Shown here in pieces: positions 1,110 to 40,423 of a stretch of 64,000 nucleotides of DNA (position 1 is the stretch's first letter; each line of letters begins with the position of its first letter). Made by a program: the position numbers and the translations under genes. This DNA is from an uncultured Desulfarculales bacterium (lineage in GTDB: Bacteria > Desulfobacterota > Desulfarculia > Desulfarculales > JAHJDS01), in contig CAZMVB010000008.1 in NCBI GenBank assembly GCA_964569795.1, positions 12,303-76,302 on the forward strand, written 5' to 3'. Under the pieces are notes generated by a model. The model did no database searches. It was not told the origin of the DNA and worked only from the letters and a program-made list of their open reading frames with translations.

Positions 1110-1532
1110 ATGAACTCGAAATACTACAGCGATCCGGCCGTGGCCCTGGACGCCCTGAGCGAGACCTTCCAGCGGGTGGTCCAGGACCCCGATATCAGCG
1201 AGTCGCTCAAGGGACTCAATCAACTGGCCGCCTTTGACTACACCCAGGACGACCCCAGCCTGTTCTTCTGGATGGACGCCCGCGGCGGACAGGTCTCGGT
1301 CGGCACCGGTCAGCCGGCCGAGGCGCCCACGGTGACCATGGTCAGCAGCCTGGACGTGGCCCATCAGTCCTGGTCCAACAAGCTCAACCCGATGATGGCC
1401 ATCGCCACCCGGAAGATCAAGCCCAAGGGCAACGCCACCTCGCTGTTGAAACTGTCGCCCCTGCTCAAGAAGATCGCTCCCATCTACAACCAGGTGCTCG
1501 ACGAGAAGGGCCTGGGGGACATCAAACTCTAG
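1110..1532 (+). CDS. SCP2 sterol/lipid-binding domain protein
   Basis: C-terminal LNPMMAIATRKIKPKGN..LLKL pattern typical of SCP2; GGAG RBS. Confidence 0.75.
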   Translation: MNSKYYSDPAVALDALSETFQRVVQDPDISESLKGLNQLAAFDYTQDDPSLFFWMDARGGQVSVGTGQPAEAPTVTMVSSLDVAHQSWSNKLNPMMAIATRKIKPKGNATSLLKLSPLLKKIAPIYNQVLDEKGLGDIKL

Positions 1533-1534
1533 CC

Positions 1535-2308
1535 ATGAACGAAGCGGTCGAGCCGGTCATCGTCGTCAGGTCCCTGTCGGTCCAGCTCGACCGGAGGCCG
1601 GTGCTGGACGACATCGACCTGGTGGTCGAGCCCCGCCGCTTCGAGATGGTCATCGGACCCAACGGCGCGGGCAAGACCACGCTCCTCAAGGCCATCCTGG
1701 GCCTGGTCCGGCCGGTCAAGGGAGAGGTCCGCGTCTTCGGCTTCGATCCCCGGCGTCTGAGGCACCGGGGACGCCTGGTGGGCTACGTCCCCCAGCGGCC
1801 CCTGTCCGACCCCGGGTTTCCGGCCACGGTCGGCGCCGTGGTCCTCATGGGCCGCTACGGCCAGATCGGGCTCGTCCGCCGGCCCGGGGCCGAGGACAAG
1901 GCCGCCGTCAAGTTGGCCCTGGAACGGGTCGGCCTTCCGGACCTGATCGACCGGCCCATCGGGGCCCTGTCCGGCGGCCAGTCCCAGCGGATCTTCATCG
2001 CCCGGGCCCTGTGCGCCGAGCCCAGGCTGCTCCTCCTGGACGAGCCGTCCATCGGCCTGGACGAGGGGGCCCGCGAGCAGTTCTACGCCCTCCTGCGCCG
2101 GCTCCAGCAGGAGCTGGACCTGACCGTGATCATGGTCACCCACGACCTGTCCGTGGTCAGCCTCCACACCGACCGGGTGGTCTGCATGAACCGGCGCCTG
2201 ATCGCCCATCAGTCCCTGCCCCTGGCGGCCCCGGCCCTGGAGGACTGCTACGGCTGTCAGGTCGAGGCCCTGTTCCACGGCCACGTCCCCCACCGGGTGG
2301 TCGATTGA
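1535..2308 (+). CDS. znuC: Zn/Mn ABC transporter ATP-binding protein
   Basis: GPNGAGKTT Walker A, GYVPQ, LSGGQ signature, LLLDEP, C-terminal Cys/His tail. Confidence 0.85.
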   Translation: MNEAVEPVIVVRSLSVQLDRRPVLDDIDLVVEPRRFEMVIGPNGAGKTTLLKAILGLVRPVKGEVRVFGFDPRRLRHRGRLVGYVPQRPLSDPGFPATVGAVVLMGRYGQIGLVRRPGAEDKAAVKLALERVGLPDLIDRPIGALSGGQSQRIFIARALCAEPRLLLLDEPSIGLDEGAREQFYALLRRLQQELDLTVIMVTHDLSVVSLHTDRVVCMNRRLIAHQSLPLAAPALEDCYGCQVEALFHGHVPHRVVD

Positions 2309-2326
2309 GGCCGAAAGGAGCGATGC

Positions 2327-3133
2327 GTGTTTGACGTCTTCACCCTGGGCTTCATGCAGCGGGCCCTGGTGGCCGGGGTGATCGTCTCCCTGCTTTTGGG
2401 GGGACTGTCGGTCTTCGTGGTCCTCCGGCGGCTGTCGTTCGTCGGGGTCGGCATCTCCCACGCCGCCTTCGGCGGGATCGCCCTCGGCTTCTGGCTGGGG
2501 GTGGACCCGACGTTCACCGGGGTCCTGTTCGCCCTGGCCGTGGGGCTCCTTATCGGCTGGGCCAGCCGGACCGGGCGGATCAAGGCCGACACGGCCATCG
2601 GTATCTTCTTTGCCGCGGCCATGGCCCTGGGGGCCATCTTTCTGGCCCTGTCCCGGCAGTACCACGCCGACGTGATCGGGGTCCTCTTCGGCGACATCTC
2701 GACCATCTGGCCGGGCGACATGTGGCTGATCGCCGGGGTCGGACTGGGGGTCGCCCTGTTTCTGGCCGCTTTTTACAAGGAATTGATCTATATCAGCTTT
2801 GATCCGGAGATGGCCCGGGTAAGCGGCGTGCCGGTGACCGCCCTGGAGTATCTCCTCCTGGCGGCCCTGGCCCTGACCGTGGTCATCGGGGTCAAGGTGG
2901 TGGGCATCGTCCTTTTGGCCGCCCTGCTGGTCGCCCCGGCGGCCTGCGCCCTGCTCTGGTCGCGCACCATCCGGGGGGTGGTGATCGTCAGCCTGTCCGT
3001 GGCCCTGGGGGCCACCCTGGGCGGCCTGGTGCTGAGCGTTTACGTCAACCTGCCCTCCGGGGCGACCATCGTCTGTCTGATCACCCTTGTCTTCCTGGTC
3101 TCCCTGGGCACGGCCCGACTGCGGGGCACCTGA
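2327..3133 (+). CDS. znuB: Zn/Mn ABC transporter permease
   Basis: FMQRAL, GISHAAFGG, LFGDI, FDPEMA motifs; GTG start after AAAGGAG. Confidence 0.85.
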   Translation: MFDVFTLGFMQRALVAGVIVSLLLGGLSVFVVLRRLSFVGVGISHAAFGGIALGFWLGVDPTFTGVLFALAVGLLIGWASRTGRIKADTAIGIFFAAAMALGAIFLALSRQYHADVIGVLFGDISTIWPGDMWLIAGVGLGVALFLAAFYKELIYISFDPEMARVSGVPVTALEYLLLAALALTVVIGVKVVGIVLLAALLVAPAACALLWSRTIRGVVIVSLSVALGATLGGLVLSVYVNLPSGATIVCLITLVFLVSLGTARLRGT

Positions 3134-3153
3134 TCCGGGTGTAAAAAAACGAC

Positions 3154-3183
3154 TTGACAAACCCCACCTGTCTCCTTCATGAT
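3154..3183 (+). promoter_or_regulatory. sigma70-type promoter upstream of the Trp leader peptide
   Basis: TTGACA (3154-3159), 18-nt spacer, CATGAT (3178-3183). Confidence 0.6.
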
Positions 3184-3205
3184 CTTTATTTAGAAGGAGT
3201 AGTTC

Positions 3206-3307
3206 ATGGGTGGACCTGAAACCGGATTCCGCGTTCTGAGCGGCGACACCAATGTTCGCTGGTGGCGCTGGTGGTGGCGTGGTGCGGAGGTCTGCCCGGA
3301 AGTCTAA
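3206..3307 (+). CDS. Trp-rich leader peptide, 33 aa (MGGPETGFRVLSGDTNVRWWRWWWRGAEVCPEV)
   Basis: AAGGAG RBS at 3194-3199; five TGG codons within six positions; followed by antiterminator/terminator; below the ORF-track size cut-off. Confidence 0.85.
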   Translation: MGGPETGFRVLSGDTNVRWWRWWWRGAEVCPEV

Positions 3308-3366
3308 CTGACAGACACAAAGTCGATCGAACCGCGGCAGGCCTCAACGGGCCCCGCGGTTTTTTT
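3287..3366 (+). promoter_or_regulatory. Ribosome-mediated transcription attenuator (antiterminator plus intrinsic terminator)
   Basis: GAGGTCTGCC (3287-3296) pairs with GGCAGGCCTC (3336-3345), which overlaps the terminator stem AACCGCGG..CCGCGGTT (3330-3361) ending in a T7 tract. Confidence 0.8.
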
Positions 3367-3425
3367 CTTGTTGACCGGGGGCTCCCAAGGCCGGCCGTGA
3401 TTTCGGCAAGCGAAAGGAGAAGACA

Positions 3426-3653
3426 ATGACACGGATGACGCACCTGGACCCCGGCAGCCTGCTCATTCACCCCGATATCCTCCAGGCGGCGGCCATGGAC
3501 CGCTGCCAGGAACTGCAGGTAAAGGCCGAAAACGGCCGGATCATCATCGAGCCCCGAACCCCGGCCGAACCGGACGGCGTTGCCTCCCGGGAAGGCCGGG
3601 TGATTCTGTTCGGCCGGATCGACGATTTGCTCCTCAGCGGCGAAGGCGGTTGA
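3426..3653 (+). CDS. Small AbrB/MazE/SpoVT-like protein (75 aa)
   Basis: GSLLIHPDILQAAAM..QELQVKAENGRIIIEP resembles the swapped-hairpin AbrB/MazE pattern; AAAGGAG RBS. Confidence 0.6.
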   Translation: MTRMTHLDPGSLLIHPDILQAAAMDRCQELQVKAENGRIIIEPRTPAEPDGVASREGRVILFGRIDDLLLSGEGG

Positions 3654-3677
3654 AGAGATCGTCGGTCGGCTTCCCCC

Positions 3678-3711
3678 GGGAGCGGCGCCTGACGGCCCGC
3701 TCCCTTTTTTT
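3678..3711 (+). terminator. Intrinsic terminator after the AbrB-like gene
   Basis: GGGAGCGG..CCGCTCCC stem followed by T7. Confidence 0.8.
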
Positions 3712-3747
3712 AGTTCCCTCGGTCGCCGCCACCCGATGCCCTCCGCC

Positions 3748-3776
3748 TTGACCTCCACTTGGCCCCCCAATATATT
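3748..3776 (+). promoter_or_regulatory. sigma70-type promoter for fumC
   Basis: TTGACC-N17-TATATT. Confidence 0.6.
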
Positions 3777-3833
3777 TAAAAAATCCAGGGCTACGATTTT
3801 TGGCTCGTTTGTCCTTCAACAGGGGCGGACCGC

Positions 3834-5213
3834 ATGAACGACCGATCAGAACGTGACTCCCTGGGCGAGGTCCAGGTCCCGGCCGAGGCCTATTACGGGG
3901 CCAACACCCGGCGGGCGATGGACAATTTCCAGATCAGCGGCCTGACCCTGCCCGACTCGCTGATCATCGCCCTGGCGAAAATCAAGCGACAGGCGGCCCG
4001 GGTCAACCTGTCCCTGGGTCGCCTGCAAAAGGCCGCGGCTGAGGCCATTGAAACAGCGGCGACCGAGATCATCGACGGCCGCCACGCGGACCAGTTCCCG
4101 CTGGACGTGTTTCAGACCGGCTCGGGCACCTCGACCAACATGAACCTGAACGAGGTAATCGCCGGCCGGGCCAACGAACTGTTGACCGGACGGCGCGGCG
4201 GCAAGGAGCCGGTCCATCCCAACGACCACGTCAACCTGGGCCAGTCCACCAACGACGTCTTTCCCTCGGCCATTCACCTGGCCGCCCTGACCCAGCTCCG
4301 GGCGGACTTGCTTCCCGCCCTGGTCTCCCTGCAGGCCAGCCTCGAGAACAAGGCCGCCGAATTTGGCGGGATAGTCAAAACTGGGCGGACCCACCTCCAG
4401 GACGCCCTGCCCGTCACACTGGGCCGGGAGTTCGGGGGTTACGCCCGGCAGGTGGAAAAGGGACGGCTCCGCCTGGAGGCCGTCCAGACCGACCTGGCCG
4501 AACTCCCCCTGGGCGGCACGGCCGTGGGTACCGGCGCCGGCGCGCCGCCCGGGTTCGCCCCCCGGGTCATCGCCGCCCTGGCCGAGGAGACCGGGCTGCC
4601 CCTGGTCGAGGCCCGCGATCACTTCGAGGCCAACTCGGCCCGGGACGCGGCGGTCATGGCCGGCGGGGCCCTCAAAAGCGTGGCCGTCAGCCTGGCCAAA
4701 ATCGCCGGCGACCTGCGGTGGCTGGCCTCGGGGCCGCGGTTCGGCCTGGGCGAGATCACCCTGCCCGAGCTCCAGCCCGGCTCGTCGATCATGCCCGGCA
4801 AGATCAACCCGGTGGTCCCTGAAGTGGTCGTCCAGGTCGCGGCCCAGGTCATCGGTCTTGACGCGGCCCTGACCCTGGGCGGCCTGGGCGGCCGGTTCGA
4901 GCTGAACACGATGATGCCCCTGATCGCCCACGACCTGCTGACCTCGATCTCCTGGCTGGCCCGGGCCGTCCGGCTTTTGGACGAAAAATGCGTCCAGGGC
5001 ATAGAGGTCCGCCCGGAACTGGCCGCCTCGGGAATCGAGCGCAACCTGATGCTGGCTACCTTTCTGGTCCCGGCCATCGGCTATGACCGGGCGGCCGAGG
5101 TGGCCCGGGAGGCCGCCCGCTCGGGCCGGACCATCGCCCAGGCGGCGGTGGACCTGGGCCTCATGGACGCCGATCAGGTCAGGGAACTCCTCGACCGGGC
5201 CGTCCCCAAGTAA
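3834..5213 (+). CDS. fumC: Class II fumarate hydratase (fumarase/aspartase superfamily)
   Basis: QTGSGTSTNMN, HPNDHVN, GRTHLQDA, GSSIMPGKINP signatures. Confidence 0.85.
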   Translation: MNDRSERDSLGEVQVPAEAYYGANTRRAMDNFQISGLTLPDSLIIALAKIKRQAARVNLSLGRLQKAAAEAIETAATEIIDGRHADQFPLDVFQTGSGTSTNMNLNEVIAGRANELLTGRRGGKEPVHPNDHVNLGQSTNDVFPSAIHLAALTQLRADLLPALVSLQASLENKAAEFGGIVKTGRTHLQDALPVTLGREFGGYARQVEKGRLRLEAVQTDLAELPLGGTAVGTGAGAPPGFAPRVIAALAEETGLPLVEARDHFEANSARDAAVMAGGALKSVAVSLAKIAGDLRWLASGPRFGLGEITLPELQPGSSIMPGKINPVVPEVVVQVAAQVIGLDAALTLGGLGGRFELNTMMPLIAHDLLTSISWLARAVRLLDEKCVQGIEVRPELAASGIERNLMLATFLVPAIGYDRAAEVAREAARSGRTIAQAAVDLGLMDADQVRELLDRAVPK

Positions 5214-5418
5214 TCCATCCGGATCGATCACCGCCCTCGGCCGGCCTTCCAACGGAAAACGGTTAACAAACCGGCCAAAAACTGGTAAGGATAGCCCGAT
5301 CTCCACTTCGCCCTGGTCCGGATGATTGATCCGGGCCAGGAATCGATTCACGTCTCGGTTTGTTCATTGGTTCCCGCCGGCCCCCAGGGGCCTGACCGGC
5401 GGCGCGAGGGAGGGTGCT

Positions 5419-6540
5419 ATGCGCAAGATCGTGGTGGCCGGAATTTCCTTGGCTCTGATCTGCGGGACGGCGGGCGTCACCAACGCCGCCCAGAAGCCGA
5501 TCCTGATCGGCGTTTACTTCCCCATGACCGGGCCCTCGGCCCCCTACGGCCAGATGGGCTGGCAGGGGCTTAAGCTCGCCCGCCAGTTCCGGCCCACCGT
5601 CCTGGGCCGGCCGGTCAAGCTGATCCTGGTGGACAACAAGTCAGACAAGGTCGAATCGGCCAACGCGGTCAACCGCCTGATCAAGTACAATCACGTCCGG
5701 GCGATCATCGGCGGCCTGACCAGCTCCAACTCGCTGGCCGGGGCCCCGGTCTGCGAAAAGGCCGAGGTGCCCATGATCAGTCCCTGGGCGACCAACCCCC
5801 TGGTCACCCAGGGCCGCAAGTACGTCTTCCGGGTCTGCTTCATCGACCCCTTCCAGGGACGCGTCGCCGCCGCGTTCGCCCGCAAGAACCTCAAGGCCAA
5901 GACCGCGGCCGTGCTCATCGACAAGTCCCAGGACTACTGCGTGGGCATCGCCGCCTTTTTCATGCGCGCTTTTAGACGGATGGGCGGCCGGATCGTCCTC
6001 AAGACCTACTACCAGACCGGCGACCAGGACTTCACCGCCCAGCTCAGCGCGGCCAAGGCGGCCAAGCCGGACCTGCTCTACGTGCCCGGCTACTTTGCCG
6101 AGGACGCCCTCATCGCCCGCCAGGCCCGGGAGCAGGGCCTGACGGCCCATCTGATGAGCGGCGACGCGGCCCAGGCCCCCGAGCTGATCAAGATCGGCAA
6201 GAAGGCCGTCGAGGGCCTGTTCTTCACCACCCACTTCGACGCCCAGGGCGTGGTCACCGCCCAGGGCCGGCGGTTCGTCAAGCTCTACCTGGCCGCCTAC
6301 AAGCAGACCCCGGATTCGGTGGCCGCCCTGTCCTGGGACACCTATAACGTCCTGCTGGACGCCATCCAGAAGGCCAAATCCACCGCCCCCAAGGCCATCG
6401 TCGCCCAGCTCGACCGGGTCAAGAATTACCCGGCCGTGACCGGCGTGTTGTCCATCGTCAATCACAACGCCGTCAAGCCGGCCGTCATCCTCAAGGTCAA
6501 GGGCGGCAAGTTCGTCTATGTGGCGACGGTCAAGCCCTAA
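5419..6540 (+). CDS. Liv-type ABC transporter substrate-binding protein
   Basis: Signal peptide, IGVYFPMTG, DNKSD, FRVCFIDPFQG, DFTAQL; start moved to the ATG after GGGAGGG. Confidence 0.9.
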   Translation: MRKIVVAGISLALICGTAGVTNAAQKPILIGVYFPMTGPSAPYGQMGWQGLKLARQFRPTVLGRPVKLILVDNKSDKVESANAVNRLIKYNHVRAIIGGLTSSNSLAGAPVCEKAEVPMISPWATNPLVTQGRKYVFRVCFIDPFQGRVAAAFARKNLKAKTAAVLIDKSQDYCVGIAAFFMRAFRRMGGRIVLKTYYQTGDQDFTAQLSAAKAAKPDLLYVPGYFAEDALIARQAREQGLTAHLMSGDAAQAPELIKIGKKAVEGLFFTTHFDAQGVVTAQGRRFVKLYLAAYKQTPDSVAALSWDTYNVLLDAIQKAKSTAPKAIVAQLDRVKNYPAVTGVLSIVNHNAVKPAVILKVKGGKFVYVATVKP

Positions 6541-12961: not shown

Positions 12962-14434
12962 ATGGACGTCACCCTGGACACCAAGATCAACGACCTCTTG
13001 AGGGACTACCCCTACCTGCTGGACTACCTGGTCTCCCTGTCCCCCGAGTTCAAGCGCCTCAAGAACCCGGTCCTGAGAAAGACCATGGGCCGGGTGGCCA
13101 CCCTGCGCAAGGCGGCGGCCATGGGCGGACTGGACCCGGACGAGTTTGTGGGCAAGATCCAGGCCGAGATAACCAGGCACGGCCCGGCGCCGGCCGAGAC
13201 GCCCCCGAGCGGTCCCGAGGGGCGCCAGGAGGCCCTCAAGCAGATCATCCGGGACCTGCACGCCGGTGAGGACATGGAGGTCCTCAAGGCCCGGTTCCGG
13301 GAGATCGTCCGGGAGGTGGACGCCGGTGAGATCGCGGCCATGGAGCAGCAGCTCATCGCCGAGGGCCTGCCCGTGGACGAGGTCAAGCGCCTGTGCGACG
13401 TCCACGTCGAGATCTTCAAGGACGCCCTGGAGGGGCAGGACCGGCCCCAGCCGCCGCCCGGGCACCCGGTCCACACCTTCATGAAGGAGAACCGGGCCTC
13501 GGAGAAGATCATCAGCGACCTGGCGATCCTGATCGGCCGGCTGGGACGGCCGCCCCGGCCCGAGTCCTGGGCCGAGCATCGGGACGAGCTGGCCGCCCTG
13601 GTGGACGAACTGTTCCGGGTGGACCTCCACTACGCCCGCAAGGAGAACCAGCTCTTTCCGCTGCTCGAGGCCCATCACTTCACCGGGCCGTCCCAGGTGA
13701 TGTGGGCCATTCACGACGATATCCGGGGGGCCCTCAAGGAGGCCCGGCGGCACCTGGCCGCGGGCGAGGCGGACCAGGCCGTGGACAACATCGAGACCGC
13801 CACCCGGGCCATTCGGGACATGATCTACAAGGAGGAGCACATCCTCTATCCGACCAGCCTGGACATGCTCAGCCAGGACGAATGGCTTCAGGTCAAGGCG
13901 GGCGAACCGGACATCGGCTACGCCTGGGTGAAGCCGGACGAGGGCTGGCCGGAGCGGATCGTTGCCCCCGGGGAAGGGGCCCCTCCCGCGCCCGAGGCCG
14001 GGACCGGGCCCGAGGTCGAGGGTGAGCTGCGCCTGGACACCGGCCGGCTGAGCGTCGCTCAGGTCAACCTCATGCTCAAGCACCTGCCCGTGGACCTGAC
14101 CTTTGTGGACGCCCAGGATCGGGTGGCCTATTACTCGGAGGGGCCGGAGCGGATCTTTCCCCGCAGCCCGGCCGTCATCGGCCGCCAGGTCCGGAACTGC
14201 CATCCGCCCAAGAGCGTCCACCTGGTCAATAAGATCCTGGACGCCTTCAAGTCGGGCCGGCGGGACACGGCCGCCTTCTGGATCCCGCTCGGCGGCCGGT
14301 TCATTTACATCCGCTACTTTGCGGTGCGCGACGAGGCGGGCGAGTACCAGGGGGTGCTCGAGGTCAGCCAGGACCTGACCGAACTCCGCAAGCTGGAAGG
14401 CCAGCAGCGTCTGCTGGACTGGGAGAACGAATAA
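12962..14434 (+). CDS. DUF1858-DUF438-hemerythrin-PAS domain protein
   Basis: NPVLRKTMGRVATL, EIAAMEQQL, RLCDVH, GHPVHTF, HYARKEN, KEEHIL, C-terminal NCHPPKS PAS motif. Confidence 0.85.
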   Translation: MDVTLDTKINDLLRDYPYLLDYLVSLSPEFKRLKNPVLRKTMGRVATLRKAAAMGGLDPDEFVGKIQAEITRHGPAPAETPPSGPEGRQEALKQIIRDLHAGEDMEVLKARFREIVREVDAGEIAAMEQQLIAEGLPVDEVKRLCDVHVEIFKDALEGQDRPQPPPGHPVHTFMKENRASEKIISDLAILIGRLGRPPRPESWAEHRDELAALVDELFRVDLHYARKENQLFPLLEAHHFTGPSQVMWAIHDDIRGALKEARRHLAAGEADQAVDNIETATRAIRDMIYKEEHILYPTSLDMLSQDEWLQVKAGEPDIGYAWVKPDEGWPERIVAPGEGAPPAPEAGTGPEVEGELRLDTGRLSVAQVNLMLKHLPVDLTFVDAQDRVAYYSEGPERIFPRSPAVIGRQVRNCHPPKSVHLVNKILDAFKSGRRDTAAFWIPLGGRFIYIRYFAVRDEAGEYQGVLEVSQDLTELRKLEGQQRLLDWENE

Positions 14435-14508
14435 GGTCCGGGGCCTGGACGACTGGTCCAGACCGCCGGGATCAGGACCCGATCGCGATCGGAAAGCGAG
14501 GTATTCTT

Positions 14509-15054
14509 ATGTGGCCTATCGGACCCTTGATGCACGAACACCGACTCATCGAACGACTGGTGGCGATTGTCGAGCAACGCCTGCCCGAGTTCAGGAAGAA
14601 CCAGCGGGTCGATTCAGTGATGATCGACCGGGTGACCGAATTCTTCCGGATGTACGCCGACCGGTGTCACCACGGCAAGGAGGAGGACATCCTGTTCAAA
14701 AGCCTGGAGACCAAGGATTTGAGCCCGGAACTGACCGAGATGATGGCCGAACTGGTCCAGGACCACGTCGAGGGAAGAAAGATGGTCGGGGCCCTGGTCG
14801 CGGCCAACGGGCGCTACGCCGCCGGCGAATCGGCGGCCTGGACCGAGGTCGTGGATTTGCTGGAGCGTTTGATCGTCTTTTATCCCAACCACATCGCCAA
14901 GGAAGACAAGCACTTCTTCTTCCCCTGCATGGGCCATTACTCCCGGGAGGAGAAGGACGTCATGCTCGACGAGTTCAGCGGGTTCGACGCGAAGCTGATC
15001 CACGAGTTTTTCGGGAAGGTCGTGGCCTCGATGGAGGGTTCCGGCGCCGGGTGA
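14509..15054 (+). CDS. Hemerythrin/HHE cation-binding domain protein
   Basis: LMHEHRLI, YADRCHHGKEEDILF, HIAKED. Confidence 0.85.
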   Translation: MWPIGPLMHEHRLIERLVAIVEQRLPEFRKNQRVDSVMIDRVTEFFRMYADRCHHGKEEDILFKSLETKDLSPELTEMMAELVQDHVEGRKMVGALVAANGRYAAGESAAWTEVVDLLERLIVFYPNHIAKEDKHFFFPCMGHYSREEKDVMLDEFSGFDAKLIHEFFGKVVASMEGSGAG

Positions 15055-32248: not shown

Positions 32249-32351
32249 CGGCGTTCGTCCTAAAGGATGGGTCCATATATTATAAAAAACCTTGAACCTG
32301 AAATAGTCTCGATCCTTTCGACGACCATGTCAAGGATGGGCCGAAGGCAAG

Positions 32352-32573
32352 TTGATCACCTGTGGAACTCAGAACGACCGGCGATTCCTCAAGTCTGTTT
32401 TCAGGCTGCGGCCGCAAGAGCGCCAACTGTGCGATTTAAGACCCGGCCGCTGGGCCTTGCTTCTTTCCGAGGTCAAACGACTCCCCGAGCCGGTCCCGTT
32501 CAAGGGCCGCCAGGGCCTCTGGATCCTGCCGCCCGACGTCGAGGCCCAGGTCCGGGCGCAATTGGAGGCATGA
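32352..32573 (+). pseudogene. C-terminal remnant of an ASCH-like domain gene
   Basis: DLRPGRWALLLSEVKRLPEPVPFKGRQGLW resembles the ASCH C-terminal motif; N-terminal part absent, in-frame stop upstream. Confidence 0.55.
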
Positions 32574-33095
32574 TCAACCTTTCTGATTAGGTCCTTTGTC
32601 TGACGATTCTGGAGGTAATTCAGATTGGATCCCGATAGTCTTAAACAGGCTCCTGTCGAGCTCCTTGGCCCCGATCTCACTTCTCAAGGCATCCATGAGG
32701 AGGTTCACTTCTTTTTGCATCTTTTCCCTATCCGTAAAATCGGGGTCATACCATTGTGTAGGAATAAAACGCGACTGCAAGAGACTCACGTACAAATCGG
32801 TGTAAGCCTTAAAGGCAGGCTGGGACAAAACGACCTCGGCCTCGCCGAAGCAATTGTCAATAATATCACAGGATTTTACCAACTCATTTTTCTGAAGATC
32901 CTCTTTCATGGGGCCTACTGCCCACAGCGTAATTCTTCGAAGCGCCGGCGCCAGCTTCCGGGCAAAATCAACCTTGGCCTTGTGTCGCTCCAATTCAAAG
33001 ATGCGTTTCCGGGCCAGGTAAACGGCCCCGAGCGACGCGAGGACAGACCCTATGATCGTCAACACGGAAATGGGAAGCTGCAGCCACCAGGGCAT
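32574..33095 (-). CDS. Hypothetical protein with one N-terminal TM helix
   Basis: GGAG RBS; hydrophobic residues about 3-28, then a helical domain; low-GC codons. Confidence 0.7.
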   Translation of the reverse strand: MPWWLQLPISVLTIIGSVLASLGAVYLARKRIFELERHKAKVDFARKLAPALRRITLWAVGPMKEDLQKNELVKSCDIIDNCFGEAEVVLSQPAFKAYTDLYVSLLQSRFIPTQWYDPDFTDREKMQKEVNLLMDALRSEIGAKELDRSLFKTIGIQSELPPESSDKGPNQKG

Positions 33096-33193
33096 GGAGG
33101 TTCTCCACGTATTGATATTGCTACCGAATTACACTATGAAGCGCCACGGTGACCACGAACTCCTGATCCCGAACTGCTGAAGGAACGCGGTTA

Positions 33194-33322
33194 TCAAGAC
33201 TTTTTCTTCGGGGTGATGGTCTTCGTTTTCCTCGGTTTATCAGCTTTCTTAACCGGTTGCAGCAGTCCCGTACCCTGAGGCTTGGGCGGCTTTGGGGGCG
33301 GTGGTTTTTCGTCTTTGGTCAT
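33194..33322 (-). CDS. Lys/Pro-rich micropeptide, 42 aa (MTKDEKPPPPKPPKPQGTGLLQPVKKADKPRKTKTITPKKKS)
   Basis: GGAGA RBS 5 nt before the ATG at 33322. Confidence 0.6.
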   Translation of the reverse strand: MTKDEKPPPPKPPKPQGTGLLQPVKKADKPRKTKTITPKKKS

Positions 33323-33414
33323 GGCTGTCTCCGTTATAAGACCGCACAATAAACGAGTATAAGGAATGCGCTGATGCCTCAGCTCGGGTGAGCGCAAGCC
33401 CACCCCAGTCTTTA

Positions 33415-33594
33415 CTATGTTTCGAAGTCCTTTATCTTGTCCATTGGAGCATATTTTAAAAAACTCGTACCCCCACCGACTTCTCCCTTGCCCTTCTTCT
33501 TTGTTTTCTTGGGGGGCTTGGATGGCTTGGGGGTTTCGGACTGTTCGGCAGCCCCTTGGAGGTCAGAGGTAGGTCGCTTCTTTTCTTCGGCCAT
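33415..33594 (-). CDS. Lys/Pro-rich micropeptide, 59 aa (MAEEKKRPTSDLQGAAEQSETPKPSKPPKKTKKKGKGEVGGGTSFLKYAPMDKIKDFET)
   Basis: GGGAGG RBS directly after the upstream stop; hand-translated, not in the ORF track. Confidence 0.6.
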   Translation of the reverse strand: MAEEKKRPTSDLQGAAEQSETPKPSKPPKKTKKKGKGEVGGGTSFLKYAPMDKIKDFET

Positions 33595-33605
33595 GACAGC
33601 CTCCC

Positions 33606-34109
33606 TTAAGGGATGATCCGATAAACGATAAAAAATGCGGCGCTGATGCCTGAAACCACGAGGGCGCAGGCTCCTGTCACGACTCTCAAGGCCTTGGACT
33701 TCAATATTGTTTTGTCCCTTTCGCAGGAATTGTGGAGATCGATAATCAGCATTCCGATCAGCTCCTTATGGTCCACTGACCCGTATTCAGTCCAAGTCCT
33801 TATTTCAACGGGATAGGTGTAAACATTCCTCGGCCATAGTGCCAGGATTGAGAATACCAAACCCACCAGGGCAGCCCCGAAGGCGACTACCAGCGAGCCC
33901 ATTTCCCAAAATCCGCTTGGTGTACGTTTCAGGGAAGAGACTATGGATAGCATGGCTGCGAGAACAACCCCCTGGCCTGCCAGTCCAAACGACGCCTTTG
34001 CGTCCAGCTTGTCGCAGGTCTCCATTAAGGCGCCTAGCTGCTTGACCAGCAGGTCATAGATGAGCTTGGCGTTCTCGAGAGAGCCTATTCGGGATCCTTG
34101 TTGTTCCAT
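33606..34109 (-). CDS. Three-TM protein resembling the Pycsar effector (PycTM/DUF5706) family
   Basis: DKLDAKAS..TM..TM-LALWPR..KSKAL..TM architecture. Confidence 0.6.
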   Translation of the reverse strand: MEQQGSRIGSLENAKLIYDLLVKQLGALMETCDKLDAKASFGLAGQGVVLAAMLSIVSSLKRTPSGFWEMGSLVVAFGAALVGLVFSILALWPRNVYTYPVEIRTWTEYGSVDHKELIGMLIIDLHNSCERDKTILKSKALRVVTGACALVVSGISAAFFIVYRIIP

Positions 34110-34334
34110 CTTCCCTGGCCAGCCCGTGCATTTGATTTCAAAATGATGATAAAATGTACCCTCTGAGCTTGTCCAGGACTTTTTGGGGGCCGCTGGTGCC
34201 TTTTTTGGGTGCTGGATTCGGCTTCAGGCAGCCAAGAATGGTCGTCGAACGGGTCACCATGAATGTCAGTTCAAGGGAAAAATTATATAGTTAGGTTGAT
34301 CGACCTGAGAAATGATTACTCGGCCCTTGTCCCG

Positions 34335-36973: not shown

Positions 36974-37411
36974 TTACCAGCAACCGCCGCCGCCCGGACC
37001 ATATCCCCAGCCCGGACCACGACGCCAACCCGGACCATATCCCCAGCCCGGACCACGACGCCAGCCCGGACCACCGCGCCAGGCGTACCGGCGGGCATCT
37101 GGATTCTTGAGGTTGTACTCGGTGACCCGTTTGAACAAATTGGACCGCAGGGTGTTGATCTCCTGGGTCAGGGCCTTGACCTTGGCCGCATCGGGCTTGG
37201 CCCTGGCCATCTCGTCGTACAGGGCCCGCTGCTTGTTCCACAGGTTGGCCCGCAGGTTATAGGTCGCCTGGTCACCGGGCCCCCACATCATCGCGCCCGG
37301 ACCACCGCACCAGCCCCCGTAAGGGCCGCCGGCCCACTGGGCCATGGCCGTACCGGCCGCCAGGGTCACGATTGCCAGGGCCAAGGCCACCGTGATCAGT
37401 TTCTTGGTCAT
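36974..37411 (-). CDS. Periplasmic Spy/CpxP/ZraP-like protein with GPGW repeat tail
   Basis: Signal peptide, GGWCGGPG, LYDEMARAKPDAAKVKALTQEIN helix; start at the ATG after GAGGGG. Confidence 0.75.
   Translation of the reverse strand: MTKKLITVALALAIVTLAAGTAMAQWAGGPYGGWCGGPGAMMWGPGDQATYNLRANLWNKQRALYDEMARAKPDAAKVKALTQEINTLRSNLFKRVTEYNLKNPDARRYAWRGGPGWRRGPGWGYGPGWRRGPGWGYGPGGGGCW
36993..37073. repeat. 36-bp in-frame tandem repeat (GPGWRRGPGWGY x2)
   Basis: cccggaccatatccccagcccggaccacgacgcca present twice plus a partial copy. Confidence 0.9.
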
Positions 37412-37480
37412 CCGTGTTCCCCTCAAGGTGTGAAATATGGTCTTGACCCCGCTGTGAGGTCGTGTTGTGGCCCTACGTCA

Positions 37481-37860: not shown

Positions 37861-38541
37861 GTGGGCGGTGAGGAACGGCCGAAAATCTGCGCCAGCGTCG
37901 TCGAGGCCACCCCGGTCGAGGCGGCCCGGACCATGACCCAGGCGGCCGGGTGGGCCGACCTGTTCGAGTGGCGTCTGGATCACCTGGCCCAGGGGGACCT
38001 GCCACCCCGGATCGACCGGCTCCCCGGTCCCCTGATCCTGACCTGCCGGCCGGAATGGGACGGCGGCCGGTTCAAGGGAGAGGAAAAAGAGCGGGCGGTC
38101 TTCATCAGCCGCTTTTTCGACTTGGCCCCTGATTACATTGACATCGAGCTCAAGGCCGGCCCGGCGGTCTGGGAGGTGATCAGGGATCGACCCGAGAACA
38201 CGGGCCTGGTGGTCTCCCTTCATCTGTGGGAATCCACGCCGCCCGAGGCCTTCCTGTCCGCCTGGTTTCAGCGGCTGTCCCGGACCGAGGCCGACGTCAT
38301 GAAGCTGGTCACCCGAGCCAAAAACGCCGAGGACAACCTGCGGGTCCTGTCGCTGATCACTCAGGCCGGCGACCGGGACCTGATCGCCTTTTGCGCCGGG
38401 CCCCTGGGCCGGTGGAGCCGGGTCGCGGCCCCGCTGGTGGGCAGCCCCTGGACCTATGCCCCGGCCCGGGAGGACGCCCTCACGGCCCCGGGTCAGATCG
38501 CCGGGCCGGCGCTCAGGCGGATACTCGACCAACTGACGTGA
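37861..38541 (+). CDS. aroD: Type I 3-dehydroquinate dehydratase
   Basis: EWRLD, ILTCRPEWDGG, YIDIE, VSLH, DVMKLVT, PGQI. Confidence 0.9.
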   Translation: MGGEERPKICASVVEATPVEAARTMTQAAGWADLFEWRLDHLAQGDLPPRIDRLPGPLILTCRPEWDGGRFKGEEKERAVFISRFFDLAPDYIDIELKAGPAVWEVIRDRPENTGLVVSLHLWESTPPEAFLSAWFQRLSRTEADVMKLVTRAKNAEDNLRVLSLITQAGDRDLIAFCAGPLGRWSRVAAPLVGSPWTYAPAREDALTAPGQIAGPALRRILDQLT

Positions 38542-39359
38542 TCGACGCCGGTACCCAAGTGTACGCCGTGATCGGCCGGCCCCTGGACCACACCCTCAGC
38601 CCGGCGGTCCACAACGCCGCCTTTCAGGCAACCGGCCTCAACGCGGTGTATCTGGCCCTGCCCACCGATGATCCGGCCGGGGCCCTGGCCGGGGCACGGG
38701 CCCTGGGCCTGAAGGGCCTGTCCATCACCATCCCCCACAAGGAGGCGGCCCTGGCCGGGGTGGATGAGGTCGAGGCCGAGGCCCGAACCCTGGGGGCGAT
38801 CAACACCGTCGTCATTCGCGACGGTTTTCTGAAGGGGAGCAACACCGACGCCCCGGCCATCGTCGCCTGCCTGGAAAAGGCCGGCCCGGTGTCCGGACGG
38901 CGGGCCCTGATCCTGGGGACCGGCGGCGCGGCCCGGGCGGCGGCCTTTGGTCTGTCCCAGGCCGGGGCCGAGGTGATCGTCGCCGGACGGCGGGCCGACC
39001 GGGTGGCCGGGCTGGCCCGGGACCTGGGGGTCCGAGGAATATCCTGGGCCGAGATCGGCACGGAAAATCCCGAACTGGTGATCAACGCCACGCCGGTCGG
39101 GATGTGGCCTCAGGCCGACGAAACGCCGCTGGACGTGTCCGGGCTGGACCCCGGGACCGTGGTCCTGGACATGGTTTACAACCCGCTGCAAACCCGGTTG
39201 TTGACCCTGGCCCAGGATCGGGGCCTGACCACCGTCTCGGGCCTGGAGGTCTTCCTGGATCAGGCGGCCCGGCAGTTCGAGCTGTGGACCGGTACCTCGG
39301 CCCCGGTGCAGGTGATGCGGGAGGCGGCCCTGACTGCTCTTCGCGGAGGATTAAGATAA
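38538..39359 (+). CDS. aroE: Shikimate dehydrogenase
   Basis: HTLSPAVHN, SITIPHKE, GAINT, NTD, GTGGAARA, NATPVGM, DMVYNP. Confidence 0.95.
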   Translation: MIDAGTQVYAVIGRPLDHTLSPAVHNAAFQATGLNAVYLALPTDDPAGALAGARALGLKGLSITIPHKEAALAGVDEVEAEARTLGAINTVVIRDGFLKGSNTDAPAIVACLEKAGPVSGRRALILGTGGAARAAAFGLSQAGAEVIVAGRRADRVAGLARDLGVRGISWAEIGTENPELVINATPVGMWPQADETPLDVSGLDPGTVVLDMVYNPLQTRLLTLAQDRGLTTVSGLEVFLDQAARQFELWTGTSAPVQVMREAALTALRGGLR

Positions 39360-40423
39360 TGGCGGGCAACACCTTTGGTCAGATTTGGCGCGTGACCACG
39401 TTCGGCGAGTCCCACGGCCCGGCCATCGGGGCCGTGATCGACGGCTGCCCGGCCGGTCTGCCCCTGGACGAGGCGACCGTCCAGGCCGAACTGGACCGCC
39501 GTCGGCCCGGCCAGGGGGCCTTTGCCAGTCCCCGCCGCGAGCCGGACCAGGTCCGCCTCCTGTCCGGGGTCTTCGAGGGAAAGACCCTGGGCACGCCCAT
39601 CGGCCTGGTGATCGACAACCGCGACGTCCGGTCCGCGGACTACGACGATCTGCGCGACAAGTTCCGGCCCGGTCAGGCCGACGTGACCTATTACCAGAAA
39701 TACGGGCTTCGGGATCATCGGGGCGGCGGCCGGGCCTCGGCCCGGGAGACCGCGGCCCGGGTGGCGGCCGGGGCCGTGGCCCAGGTCCTGCTCGATCAGG
39801 ACCAGATCGAGGTTTTGGGCGGGACCAGGGCCATCGGCGGCGTGGTCGCCCCGGACACGGACTGGGCCGCGGTGGACGACAATGACCTGCTCTGCCTCGA
39901 TCCCGACGCCGTCCCGGCCCTCATGGCCCGCCTGGCCGAGGTCAAGGCCGCCGGCGACTCGGTGGGCGGCCTGGTCGAGGTTCTGGTCCGCAACTGTCCG
40001 CCGGGCCTGGGCGAGCCGGTCTTTGACAAGCTCGAGGCCGACTTGGCCAAGGCCCTGATGTCCATCGGGGCGGTCAAGGGCGTCGAGATCGGGGCCGGTT
40101 TCAACGCGGCCGACCTGCTCGGCTCGGAGAACAACGATCTTTTGACCCCGACCGGATACACCTCGAACCAGGCCGGCGGCGTGCTGGGCGGCATCTCGAC
40201 CGGCCAGGACATCTTTCTCCGGGTGGCAATCAAGCCGATCCCGTCCATCGAACGGGAGCAGCGGACCATGGATCAGATGGGACGGCCGACGACCATCCGG
40301 ATCACCGGCCGCCACGACGTCTGCGCCCTGCCCCGGATCGTACCCGTGGTCCAGGCCATGGTCCGCCTGGTCCTGGCCGATCATCTGCTCCGCAAGCGCC
40401 TGGCCCGTCATGATTCGGCTTGA
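39359..40423 (+). CDS. aroC: Chorismate synthase
   Basis: TFGESHG, RPGQAD, GGRASARET, GGISTG, GRHD. Confidence 0.97.
   Translation: MAGNTFGQIWRVTTFGESHGPAIGAVIDGCPAGLPLDEATVQAELDRRRPGQGAFASPRREPDQVRLLSGVFEGKTLGTPIGLVIDNRDVRSADYDDLRDKFRPGQADVTYYQKYGLRDHRGGGRASARETAARVAAGAVAQVLLDQDQIEVLGGTRAIGGVVAPDTDWAAVDDNDLLCLDPDAVPALMARLAEVKAAGDSVGGLVEVLVRNCPPGLGEPVFDKLEADLAKALMSIGAVKGVEIGAGFNAADLLGSENNDLLTPTGYTSNQAGGVLGGISTGQDIFLRVAIKPIPSIEREQRTMDQMGRPTTIRITGRHDVCALPRIVPVVQAMVRLVLADHLLRKRLARHDSA

What the first reader, a model, noticed from the sequence alone, without database searches (positions are those of the whole stretch)
3154..3711. Tryptophan attenuator controlling a lone AbrB-like small gene: candidate new Trp regulatory circuit
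Seen: a promoter (TTGACA-N18-CATGAT), an RBS and a 33-aa ORF with RWWRWWWR, a 10-bp antiterminator (3287-3296:3336-3345) mutually exclusive with a T7 terminator, then one 75-aa ORF closed by its own terminator (3678-3711), with a new promoter for fumC after it. Established: this geometry (tandem Trp codons, leader stop codon over the antiterminator 5' arm) is the TrpL-type attenuator that normally precedes trpE/trpB or Trp transporters. Inference: here Trp starvation would induce only a small AbrB/MazE-fold protein, suggesting a relay regulator of trp genes, conceptually like leader-controlled anti-TRAP in Bacillus. Alternatives are read-through into fumC-liv (an aromatic amino acid importer) or an orphan attenuator left behind after the trp genes moved.
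Basis: partly seen in the sequence, partly recalled or inferred. Interest (0 to 1): 0.85.

Follow-up and report, generated by a model that had tools for sequence, protein, structure and literature searches.

The report
Tryptophan attenuator driving a small MazE-like gene
A classical tryptophan-sensing leader-peptide attenuator is conserved here as a self-contained unit with one small, tryptophan-free, MazE/AbrB-like protein gene rather than with tryptophan synthesis genes, which suggests a starvation-induced small regulator of unknown target.

Summary
Window 3154-3711 holds a sigma-70-like promoter and a 33-codon leader ORF with five Trp codons in six positions. It also holds an antiterminator (3287-3299 with 3332-3345) that excludes a strong intrinsic terminator (3329-3366), a 75-aa ORF, and a second terminator.

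The 75-aa protein belongs to a very small family: seven sequence clusters among about 15 billion proteins. All seven loci carry the same promoter, Trp-rich leader, antiterminator and terminator directly upstream. The downstream genes differ: fumC-liv, liv alone, or convergent genes. One locus lies in an unrelated neighbourhood. The leader plus small ORF is therefore the conserved unit. It is not a relic, and it is not primarily a switch for fumC-liv.

The protein contains no tryptophan in any member and is under purifying selection. Its N-terminal half resembles SpoVT-AbrB/MazE domains, but below the family threshold. Its C-terminal 20 residues are nearly invariant. No toxin gene is adjacent.

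What the protein does, and whether it relays to trp genes, could not be tested. No trp genes lie in the window. I rate it a new variant of a known kind, of moderate to high interest.

The parts
3154..3183 (+). Sigma-70-like promoter: -35 TTGACA at 3154-3159, 18-nt spacer, -10 CATGAT at 3178-3183.
   Evidence: Promoter scan. TTGACA and the -10 frame TTCAnnAT are invariant in six aligned loci. L011 has TTGACA-N18-CAATAT.
3194..3199 (+). Shine-Dalgarno AAGGAG of the leader ORF, 6 nt before the ATG.
   Evidence: Read from the sequence. Invariant in the alignment.
3206..3307 (+). Leader ORF of 33 codons plus stop: MGGPETGFRVLSGDTNVRWWRWWWRGAEVCPEV.
   Evidence: ORF list. Homologous 32-34-aa leaders with 4-5 Trp occur in all seven loci.
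3260..3277 (+). Trp codon cluster: TGG TGG CGC TGG TGG TGG (W19, W20, R21, W22, W23, W24). This is the proposed stalling site (segment 1).
   Evidence: Sequence. W at leader positions 20 and 22 is invariant, and each leader keeps 4-5 Trp.
3287..3299 (+). Antiterminator 5' arm (segment 2). It lies inside leader codons 28-32.
   Evidence: RNA folds. RNAalifold consensus of seven loci.
3329..3345 (+). Shared segment 3. It pairs either with segment 2 (antiterminator, 3332-3345) or with segment 4 (terminator 5' arm, 3329-3344).
3329..3366 (+). Intrinsic terminator: hairpin 3329-3362 and T7 run 3360-3366.
   Evidence: dG -23.1, z -3.8. Present in all seven loci with dG -20 to -28 and T5-T8.
3373..3396 (+). 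Conserved segment 5 (3373-3384), complementary to the terminator 3' arm (3349-3361), followed by the conserved AAGGCCGGCC (3387-3396). Its role is unexplained.
   Evidence: A 4:5 helix is predicted in all seven loci, dG -22 to -32. Both sides differ together in L011.
3414..3419 (+). Shine-Dalgarno AAGGAG of the 75-aa ORF.
   Evidence: Sequence. Conserved.
3426..3653 (+). 75-aa ORF. It is Trp-free, with a MazE/AbrB-like N-terminal half (about residues 8-47) and a nearly invariant C-terminal tail REGRVILFGRIDDLLLSGEGG.
3678..3711 (+). Intrinsic terminator that closes the small gene: hairpin 3678-3704 and T7 run 3705-3711.
   Evidence: dG -23.9, z -3.7. An equivalent terminator is seen in L001 and L007.
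3748..3776 (+). Boundary marker, not part of the module: the separate promoter-like site TTGACC-N17-TATATT for fumC.
   Evidence: Conserved in L001.

Best explanation
This is a ribosome-mediated transcription attenuator that senses tryptophan supply, meaning charged tRNA-Trp. Together with its own promoter it forms a self-contained module whose only conserved output is a 75-aa, Trp-free, MazE/AbrB-like protein.

With Trp plentiful:
- The ribosome translates the 33-codon leader through to the stop codon at 3305-3307.
- There it covers the antiterminator 5' arm (3287-3299).
- Segment 3 therefore pairs with segment 4. The terminator (3329-3366) forms and transcription ends after about 175 nt.

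With Trp scarce:
- The ribosome stalls in the WW-R-WWW cluster (3260-3277) and leaves 3287-3299 free.
- The 13-bp antiterminator forms with 3332-3345, and RNA polymerase reads into the small ORF.

With no translation at all, the antiterminator is the default fold. Termination therefore needs active leader translation.

From its anatomy, the protein is most likely a small dimeric swapped-hairpin (AbrB/MazE-type) regulator. Its nearly invariant C-terminal helix probably binds a conserved cellular partner, as the C-terminal tail of MazE binds its toxin. It may also bind DNA through the N-terminal domain. It would then pass the Trp-starvation signal to targets encoded elsewhere.

Shown: the sequence elements, their predicted thermodynamics, their conservation as a unit, and the coding constraint. 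Inferred: Trp-dependent switching, the fold, and everything about the protein's target.
For: Anatomy in the window:
- Promoter, leader ORF, terminator and antiterminator with z -3.8 and -3.1.
- The antiterminator is part of the MFE fold of the full leader.
- No promoter-like site lies between the terminator and the ORF.

Conservation as a unit:
- An exhaustive profile search of 1.84 billion representative proteins and a word-indexed search of 5.8 billion found only seven true clusters.
- Every locus has TTGACA, a leader of 32-34 aa with 4-5 Trp, an antiterminator of -27 to -31 kcal/mol, and a terminator of -20 to -28 with T5-T8. The last Trp lies 27-33 nt before the stop.
- Flanking genes differ. 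Downstream are fumC+liv (window, L001), liv (L003), or convergent genes (L004, L008, L011). L011 lies beside hrcA-grpE rather than after the ABC-3 permease.

RNA constraint:
- The 51-nt leader core differs at 2 positions between the window and L004. In contrast, 45% of synonymous sites differ in the adjacent ORF.
- L011 keeps both alternative helices with a different apical sequence.

The ORF is a real gene:
- GC3 is 0.80 in frame.
- Length is kept at 73-76 aa and dN/dS is 0.22-0.67 in all pairs.
- It has a strong SD. There are 20 invariant columns, most of them in the C-terminal tail.
- There is no Trp in any of the seven proteins. The canonical MazE relatives have an invariant Trp at position 9.

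Fold:
- P0007 matches PF04014 at E 0.0033, 17.8 bits.
- hhalign probability is 96.6%, E 6.6e-10, against MazE antitoxins that pass Pfam's threshold and sit next to PemK toxins.
- 18 of 25 listed weak plasmid hits are annotated AbrB/MazE/SpoVT.
- The AlphaFold secondary structure (helix 16-26, strands 30-35 and 38-43) fits the domain.
Against: - There are no experimental data. Switching is inferred from predicted folds.
- Strict compensatory covariation is absent, because the RNA is almost invariant. RNAalifold found 0 pairs changed on both sides.
- The whole-leader fold is not more stable than shuffles (z -0.8). Only the individual hairpins are.
- A ribosome stalled at the last Trp codon (3275-3277) would come close to the 5' arm at 3287. 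Only stalls at the earlier Trp codons clearly free it.
- The window protein itself has no Pfam or NCBIfam hit.
- The AlphaFold model is poor (pLDDT 53.6), and the Foldseek search found nothing.
- The MazE comparison set was selected through a motif shared with the query, which inflates the hhalign score.
- No link to trp genes was found. None lie in the window, and carrier genomes could not be searched further.
Confidence: 0.75

Rival explanations
1. Dual-function RNA or peptide. The short terminated leader transcript (about 175 nt), the Arg/Trp-rich leader peptide, or both, are the main functional products and act in trans. This would resemble rnTrpL and peTrpL of Sinorhizobium. Control of the small ORF would then be secondary.
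For: - The 3' half of the leader is almost invariant across lineages whose neighbouring ORF differs at 45% of synonymous sites. That is more than base pairing alone demands.
- The peptide C-terminus RGAEV[CY]P[EPV]V is kept in L011 through synonymous changes: GGT>GGC, GCG>GCC, GTC>GTT.
- An extra conserved segment 5 has no role in termination.
- There is precedent for trans-acting attenuator RNA and leader peptide (PMC7298713, PMC7968998).
Against: - The leader is never found without the 75-aa ORF. Genome scan: only the known MAG plus one chance hit inside a coding region. Leader-peptide profile search: only the three leaders already known.
- The N-terminal 17 residues of the peptide are not conserved.
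- Trp to Cys and Arg to Leu/Cys changes are tolerated inside the RW motif.
- Overlapping peptide and RNA-arm constraints can explain the invariance.
Confidence: 0.12
2. Toxin-antitoxin-like pair. The MazE-like protein is an antitoxin or autoregulator. Its partner is either the membrane-active RW-rich leader peptide or a toxin encoded elsewhere. Alternatively the AbrB-fold protein is itself a SymE-like toxin that slows growth when Trp runs out.
For: - The closest recognisable relatives are MazE antitoxins paired with PemK/MazF toxins.
- The tail IDDLLLSG resembles the LDDLLAGI segment that follows the AbrB domain in those antitoxins.
- There is a weak SymE_toxin hit for P0004, E 0.21.
- RWWRWWWR resembles Arg/Trp-rich antimicrobial peptides (my own knowledge, not tested here).
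Against: - No PemK/MazF-like ORF is adjacent in any of the seven loci, and none was found anywhere in the window by tblastn.
- A strong terminator and antiterminator sit between the two ORFs. That is attenuator geometry, not a translationally coupled toxin-antitoxin pair.
- The family lacks the distal toxin-binding C-terminus of MazE.
Confidence: 0.08
3. The attenuator mainly controls the downstream fumC-liv genes, a branched-chain or aromatic amino-acid ABC importer, by read-through. The small ORF is incidental.
For: liv-type transporter genes follow in the same orientation in the window, L001 and L003. In L003 the terminator after the small ORF has a weak T-run.
Against: - In L004/L005, L008 and L011 the next gene is convergent.
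- The window and L001 have a strong terminator (dG -23.9, T7) and a separate conserved promoter before fumC.
- The small ORF is under purifying selection.
Confidence: 0.04
4. It is an orphan attenuator left behind after trp genes moved away, now decaying beside a chance ORF.
For: There are no trp genes next to it, and the regulated protein has no recognised function.
Against: All parts are conserved in seven lineages and two unrelated neighbourhoods. The leader core is nearly invariant and the ORF has dN/dS below 1. No relative has trp genes downstream.
Confidence: 0.01

Closest known systems
TrpL-type leader-peptide transcription attenuators (E. coli trpL and relatives; Rfam Trp_leader)
   Same: It has a short translated ORF with tandem Trp codons. 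An intrinsic terminator and a mutually exclusive antiterminator are present, and ribosome position would choose between them.
   Different: - It regulates a lone small MazE-like gene, not trp biosynthesis, transport or charging genes.
- The leader is long (33 codons) with 4-5 Trp.
- No 1:2 'protector' pairing is predicted, so the untranslated default is read-through.
- It has an additional conserved segment 5.
- It does not match any Rfam model.
Anti-TRAP (RtpA/YczA) of Bacillus subtilis (PMC10327191)
   Same: The logic is shared. A small regulatory protein is made only when uncharged tRNA-Trp accumulates, its expression is gated by a cis RNA device that includes a Trp-codon leader peptide, and it acts in trans on Trp regulation.
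   Different: - Anti-TRAP is a Cys-rich zinc-binding protein induced through a T-box, and it targets TRAP.
- This protein is MazE/AbrB-like with no conserved Cys.
- It is induced by a classical terminator/antiterminator attenuator.
- Its target is unknown.
MazE / SpoVT-AbrB domain antitoxins and transition-state regulators (Pfam PF04014)
   Same: The N-terminal roughly 40 residues align in register with the swapped-hairpin domain, including ...IP..v..a..l.....v.v....GRIIIEP. A short helix-like segment (IDDLLL) follows it, as in MazE.
   Different: - It scores below Pfam's threshold.
- It lacks the conserved Trp of the WGNS motif and the distal toxin-binding tail.
- No adjacent toxin gene is present.
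- It is preceded by an attenuator rather than an autoregulated operator-promoter.
YtgCR of Chlamydia trachomatis (PMC7755916)
   Same: Trp availability controls production of a small DNA-binding regulator through ribosome stalling at a Trp-codon cluster followed by premature termination. The regulator is encoded directly after an ABC-3 metal-transporter permease. In six of the seven lineages this module also lies directly after an ABC-3 permease gene.
   Different: - In Chlamydia the WWW motif is inside the permease-repressor fusion ORF, and Trp starvation lowers the repressor.
- Here the Trp codons are in a separate leader, starvation should raise expression, and the regulator is MazE-like rather than DtxR-like.
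- The link to ABC-3 is absent in L011.
rnTrpL/peTrpL of Sinorhizobium meliloti (PMC7298713, PMC7968998)
   Same: It is an example of a Trp attenuator whose products act beyond cis control of the downstream gene.
   Different: That attenuator still precedes trpE(G). There is no evidence here for trans activity.

Membership tests
Leader-peptide (ribosome-mediated) Trp transcription attenuator | A short ORF with its own ribosome-binding site and clustered Trp codons. | tested here: met
   SD at 3194-3199; ORF 3206-3307 with W19, W20, W22, W23, W24. All seven loci have 4-5 Trp.
Leader-peptide (ribosome-mediated) Trp transcription attenuator | An intrinsic terminator between the leader and the regulated gene. 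| tested here: met
   Hairpin 3329-3362 plus T7, dG -23.1, z -3.8. Conserved in seven loci.
Leader-peptide (ribosome-mediated) Trp transcription attenuator | An antiterminator mutually exclusive with the terminator, with its 5' arm within the footprint of a ribosome at the leader stop codon. | tested here: met
   3287-3299 pairs with 3332-3345 and overlaps the terminator 5' arm. The stop codon at 3305-3307 is 6 nt after the arm. This rests on prediction only.
Leader-peptide (ribosome-mediated) Trp transcription attenuator | The regulated genes belong to Trp biosynthesis, uptake or charging. | tested here: not met
   The only conserved downstream gene is the 75-aa MazE-like ORF. No trp genes lie in the window.
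Leader-peptide (ribosome-mediated) Trp transcription attenuator | Trp-dependent read-through in vivo or in vitro. | not testable with these tools
   This needs reporter fusions, Term-seq or in vitro transcription-translation.
Rfam Trp_leader and other curated leader or riboswitch families | A covariance-model match at the gathering score. | tested here: not met
   No relevant family appears even at E up to 10 in 2800-4200. No family reaches gathering score in the whole window.
SpoVT-AbrB / MazE domain (Pfam PF04014) | A Pfam match at the gathering score (24.7 bits). | tested here: not met
   The window protein has no hit at E up to 1. The best family member, P0007, scores 17.8 bits, E 0.0033.
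SpoVT-AbrB / MazE domain (Pfam PF04014) | Remote homology to bona fide members, in register over the swapped-hairpin domain. | tested here: inconclusive
   - hhalign 96.6%, E 6.6e-10, against ten MazE antitoxins; that set was retrieved through a shared motif.
- 18 of 25 listed weak plasmid hits are annotated AbrB/MazE/SpoVT.
- The structure model is too poor to confirm the fold.
Type II toxin-antitoxin module (mazEF-like) | An adjacent, co-oriented cognate toxin gene. | tested here: not met
   No toxin ORF follows in any locus. There is no PemK-like match in the window. The canonical relatives do have one.
Anti-TRAP (RtpA) | A Cys-rich zinc-binding motif and the presence of TRAP. | tested here: not met
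   No Cys column is conserved in the family alignment. The presence of TRAP was not testable.
TnaC-type free-Trp-sensing arrest peptide | A single conserved Trp with Asp and a C-terminal Pro at fixed spacing, with Rho-dependent termination downstream. | tested here: not met
   There are multiple tandem Trp codons. An intrinsic terminator with a T-run follows the leader. The peptide ends in P-x-V, not in Pro-stop.

The most novel reading that the evidence does not exclude
The module is a previously unrecognised Trp-starvation relay. An attenuator that reads tRNA-Trp charging drives a dedicated, Trp-free, MazE-derived small protein. Through its invariant C-terminal helix and/or its AbrB-type DNA-binding domain, this protein acts in trans on Trp/aromatic metabolism or on a growth-control factor. 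That would make it a functional analogue of anti-TRAP, built independently from an antitoxin scaffold in an uncultured lineage of sediment bacteria. The extra conserved 4:5 helix and the conserved leader C-terminus may add a second, post-transcriptional layer of control.
Probability: 0.35. Interest if true: 0.75.

Novelty: new variant of a known kind. Interest (0 to 1): 0.58.

Why it matters
Leader-peptide attenuators are textbook devices, and they are almost always found in cis to the biosynthetic operon for the amino acid they sense. Here the full device is conserved as a unit with a single small regulator-like gene. This suggests that attenuators can serve as general amino-acid sensors that feed trans-acting circuits.

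It also gives a clear physiological handle, Trp starvation, for a protein family with no annotation. It shows a MazE/AbrB antitoxin scaffold that has lost its toxin and its own tryptophan and has come under amino-acid control.

The module is only about 560 bp and uses sigma-70-type signals, so it can be tested directly in E. coli.

Tried and rejected
- **Rfam.** A search of the region at E up to 10 and of the whole window at gathering score found nothing relevant.
- **Pfam and NCBIfam.** The window protein has no hit in either.
- **PDB profile search.** It gave only a weak hit (E 0.054) to formylmethanofuran dehydrogenase subunit C, over a G-R-I-I-I-E-like repeat. I judged it chance.
- **Structure.** The AlphaFold2 model has pLDDT 53.6 and the Foldseek search of the PDB has no match below E 1. 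Neither is usable.
- **False positives in the profile search.** P0008 (1198 aa) and P0009 (596 aa) are repeat proteins that score through many weak repeats. I rejected them as homologues.
- **Leader DNA pattern scans.**
  - The GTDB genome scan returned only the MAG already known, plus a Microbacterium match inside a membrane-protein coding region with no Trp cluster. I rejected the latter.
  - The metagenome scan returned nothing. The collection evidently lacks the JGI contigs that carry the module.
- **Leader-peptide profile search.** It returned only the three leaders already known. A first attempt failed because the query was shorter than 40 aa.
- **Metagenome protein scan.** It found 16 loci. 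All are ordinary mazE antitoxins that match only residues 18-47. I used them as a comparison set, not as family members.
- **SD occlusion.** I tested whether segment 5 hides the SD of the 75-aa ORF when the terminator hairpin is formed. SD accessibility rises in the antiterminated state in 4 of 7 loci, is equal in 1 and falls slightly in 2. This is inconclusive.
- **Compensatory covariation.** None was found in the two main helices, because the RNA is nearly invariant.
- **Second leader, paralogue or toxin.** I found no second Trp leader, no paralogue and no MazF-like gene in the window or in the related loci.
- **Taxonomy.** I could not get beyond the NCBI label 'Proteobacteria/Pseudomonadota bacterium' carried by 90%-identical RecA proteins.
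Full report
**1. What is in the sequence**

Window 3140-3830 reads, in order, as follows.
- An A-rich tract, then TTGACA (3154-3159), an 18-nt spacer and CATGAT (3178-3183). This is one of only two + strand promoter-like sites in 2500-5500, where shuffles gave a mean of 0.4.
- AAGGAG (3194-3199), then a 33-codon ORF at 3206-3307 encoding MGGPETGFRVLSGDTNVRWWRWWWRGAEVCPEV.
- A hairpin at 3329-3362 with a T7 run at 3360-3366, dG -23.1 kcal/mol, z -3.8 against dinucleotide shuffles.
- A second AAGGAG (3414-3419) and a 75-codon ORF at 3426-3653.
- A second hairpin plus T7 at 3678-3711, dG -23.9, z -3.7.
- A separate promoter-like site at 3748-3776 before fumC, 3834-5213.

Residues 28-32 of the leader are encoded by 3287-3299. 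This stretch pairs with 3332-3345 in 13 bp with one bulge (dG -29.1 for 3280-3350, z -3.1). The 3' partner is also the 5' arm of the terminator, so the two structures exclude each other. The antiterminator is part of the minimum-free-energy fold of the whole leader.

The stop codon lies 6 nt after the 5' arm rather than on it.

No other intergenic short ORF in the 64-kb window has four or more Trp in eight residues.

**2. Is the 75-aa ORF a gene, and what is it?**

Its GC3 is 0.80 in frame, close to neighbouring genes at 0.89-0.91.

The family is very small.
- A word-indexed search of 5.8 billion proteins found five other clusters at 52-79% identity.
- An exhaustive HMM search of 1.84 billion cluster representatives added one more distant member, P0007, at 44% identity.
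- That search also returned two repeat proteins, which I reject as artefacts.

The seven proteins keep their length at 73-76 aa. dN/dS is 0.22-0.67 in every pair, and none contains tryptophan. The C-terminal tail (R)EGRVILFGRIDDLLLSGEGG is invariant in the six close members and largely kept in P0007. The linker before it is variable.

The window protein has no Pfam or NCBIfam hit. The AlphaFold2 model is poor (pLDDT 53.6) and the Foldseek search is uninformative. Even so, four lines of evidence point to a SpoVT-AbrB/MazE swapped-hairpin domain in residues 8-47.
- P0007 hits PF04014 at E 0.0033, 17.8 bits, which is below the 24.7-bit cut-off.
- A metagenome scan seeded with the family's motifs retrieved 16 ordinary mazE genes. 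These pass Pfam's threshold and are followed by PemK/MazF toxins. The family profile aligns to them with hhalign probability 96.6%. That set was selected through a shared motif, so the score is inflated.
- An unselected tblastn search of 7.3 Gb of plasmids gave only weak hits (E about 1-10). However, 18 of the 25 listed rows fall on genes annotated 'AbrB/MazE/SpoVT family DNA-binding domain-containing protein', aligned to residues 8-50.
- The predicted secondary structure (helix 16-26, strands 30-35 and 38-43) fits the domain.

The canonical relatives have an invariant Trp in their KKWGNS motif. This family has replaced it. No toxin gene is adjacent in any locus, and no PemK-like sequence is in the window.

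**3. Comparative test of the attenuator**

I retrieved the contigs that encode every family member. Every distinct locus (window, L001, L003, L004, L007, L008, L011) has the following features.
- TTGACA and a -10 element at the same spacing.
- A strong SD and a leader of 32-34 codons with 4-5 Trp in the motif RWW[RL]W[WC][WY].
- The same C-terminus, RGAEV[CY]P[EPV]V-stop.
- An antiterminator of -27 to -31 kcal/mol and a terminator of -20 to -28 kcal/mol with T5-T8.
- 55-71 nt from the T-run to the ORF start (34 nt to the start originally called in L007).

The surrounding genes are not conserved.
- In the window and L001 the module is followed by fumC and a liv-type ABC importer.
- In L003 it is followed by liv directly.
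- In L004/L005, L008 and L011 the next gene is convergent.
- L011 lies near hrcA-grpE instead of after the adhE-SCP2-ABC-3 transporter genes that precede the module in the longer loci; the short contigs L007 and L008 show only the transporter end of that set.

The leader plus small ORF is thus the conserved unit.

The leader is also under much stronger constraint than neutral sites. The 51-nt core differs at 2 positions between the window and L004, against 45% difference at synonymous sites of the adjacent ORF.

Because the RNA is nearly invariant, RNAalifold finds no pair changed on both sides. L011, however, keeps both alternative helices with a different apical sequence and register.

Scans for the leader elsewhere found nothing new.
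- The GTDB genome scan returned only the known MAG and one chance match inside a Microbacterium coding region.
- The JGI metagenome collection returned no match.
- A leader-peptide profile search returned only the three leaders already known.

**4. How it most likely works**

What is shown: the elements, their predicted stabilities, and their conservation as a unit.

What is inferred from the established mechanism of leader-peptide attenuation:
- **Trp plentiful.** With charged tRNA-Trp available, the ribosome reaches UAA at 3305-3307 and covers roughly 3290-3320. This keeps 3287-3299 single-stranded, so 3329-3344 pairs with 3349-3362 and RNA polymerase terminates in the T-run.
- **Trp scarce.** With Trp limiting, the ribosome stalls at 3260-3277. 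The arm at 3287-3299 then pairs with 3332-3345, the terminator cannot form, and the 75-aa ORF is transcribed and translated from its own SD.

Unlike E. coli trpL, no 1:2 pairing is predicted. The untranslated default is therefore read-through, and termination needs a ribosome to sit at or near the stop codon while about 55 more nucleotides are made. This could explain why the peptide's C-terminus (with Pro at -3) is conserved at the amino-acid level. That explanation is a speculation.

A protein made only when Trp is scarce should avoid Trp. All seven members do, although their MazE relatives carry a conserved Trp.

The most conserved part of the protein is the C-terminal helix-like tail. It occupies the place of the toxin-binding segment in MazE. 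I therefore favour a small dimeric regulator that binds a conserved partner protein through this tail and possibly DNA through the AbrB-like domain. Its target is unknown.

**5. An additional conserved feature**

Between the T-run and the SD lies segment 5 (3373-3384), followed by the conserved AAGGCCGGCC. Segment 5 is complementary to the terminator 3' arm.
- A 4:5 helix is predicted in all seven loci, dG -22 to -32.
- In L011 both sides differ together: UUCCCGCGG with UUGCGGGAA, against GGGCCCCGCGG with CCGCGGGGC.
- It is transcribed after the T-run, so it cannot influence termination.

I tested whether it couples the attenuator state to SD accessibility. The result was inconsistent across loci. 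It remains unexplained.

**6. Comparison with what is known**

Mechanistically this is a TrpL-type attenuator, and it meets every structural criterion I could test. It fails the criterion of regulating Trp-pathway genes, and it matches no Rfam model.

In logic it resembles anti-TRAP of B. subtilis, a small trans-acting protein induced by uncharged tRNA-Trp (PMC10327191). The protein is unrelated.

It also recalls YtgCR of Chlamydia, where a WWW motif makes a small repressor, encoded after an ABC-3 permease, dependent on Trp (PMC7755916). Six of the seven lineages place this module directly after an ABC-3 permease gene. The sign of regulation and the protein differ, and L011 lacks the association.

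Trans-acting roles for the terminated RNA or the peptide, as shown for rnTrpL and peTrpL (PMC7298713, PMC7968998), cannot be excluded. They are the main rival explanation.

Full-text searches found no description of a Trp attenuator coupled to a MazE/AbrB-like gene.

**7. Surroundings and limits**

The window contains aroD-aroE-aroC and futalosine-pathway menaquinone genes, but no trp genes, no tRNA and no Rfam family. The question of whether this genome's trp operon lacks its own sensor could therefore not be addressed.

The source is an uncultured bacterium. Near-identical RecA proteins are labelled only 'Proteobacteria/Pseudomonadota bacterium'.

**8. Verdict**

The circuit architecture and the AbrB/MazE-like nature hold up. 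The relay to trp genes is untested.
- It is a new variant of a known kind. The sensor is classical; its dedicated pairing with an orphan, Trp-free MazE-like protein is not described.
- Interest is 0.58.

Noticed in passing
window 3373-3396; L011 3201-3215: A conserved segment after the attenuator T-run is complementary to the terminator 3' arm. The 4:5 helix is predicted in all seven loci, and both sides change together in L011. It is followed by an invariant AGGCCGG (GGCCGGCC palindrome). It cannot affect termination, and its function is unknown.
   Followed up: partly
window 3281-3307 and the homologous leaders: The leader peptide C-terminus RGAEV[CY]P[EPV]V-stop is conserved at the amino-acid level, including synonymous changes in the distant locus L011. 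The N-terminal 17 residues are free to vary.
   Followed up: partly
window 1110-3133; L001, L003, L004, L007: In six of seven lineages the module lies directly after an ABC ATPase and ABC-3 (Znu/Mnt/Tro-type) permease pair with no binding-protein gene. In the longer loci these are preceded by adhE and an SCP2-domain gene. No terminator separates the permease stop (3133) from the module's promoter. The position recalls the repressor gene at the end of ABC-3 operons (Chlamydia YtgCR).
   Followed up: partly
window 37861-40423 and 41115-49021: An aroD-aroE-aroC cluster (dehydroquinase, shikimate dehydrogenase, chorismate synthase) is followed by a TetR gene and futalosine-pathway menaquinone genes: a PNP_UDP_1 phosphorylase, MqnA, UbiD-like, an amidohydrolase and two CofH/MqnC-like radical-SAM genes. 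No aromatic-amino-acid leader ORF was seen upstream.
   Followed up: partly
window 36974-37426 (-): A 150-aa secreted-looking protein has a weak Metal_resist (Spy/CpxP-like) match and a C-terminal Gly/Pro/Trp/Arg repeat (GPGWRRGPGWGYGPGW, twice).
   Followed up: no
window 32250-34330 (-): Two ORFs (32574-33095 and 33606-34109) have unusually low GC3 (about 0.60, against 0.85-0.95 in neighbours) and no Pfam match. They lie in a gene-poor stretch between LigT and cinA. This may be foreign or non-coding DNA.
   Followed up: no
window 56003-59272 (-): A fused B12-binding, MeaB GTPase and methylmalonyl-CoA-mutase protein of 1089 aa (IcmF-like architecture) lies next to a TetR regulator and an acyl-CoA dehydrogenase.
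   Followed up: no
window 12962-15054: A DUF1858-DUF438-hemerythrin-PAS protein (490 aa) is followed by a stand-alone hemerythrin. Together they look like an oxygen, NO or iron sensing pair.
   Followed up: no
L016-L031 (e.g. L025 4941-5521): The metagenome scan retrieved a tight family of canonical mazE-pemK/mazF pairs. Their MazE shares AENGRI[IV]IEP and LDDLLAGI with the window protein, which suggests the antitoxin lineage from which the orphan family derives.
   Followed up: partly
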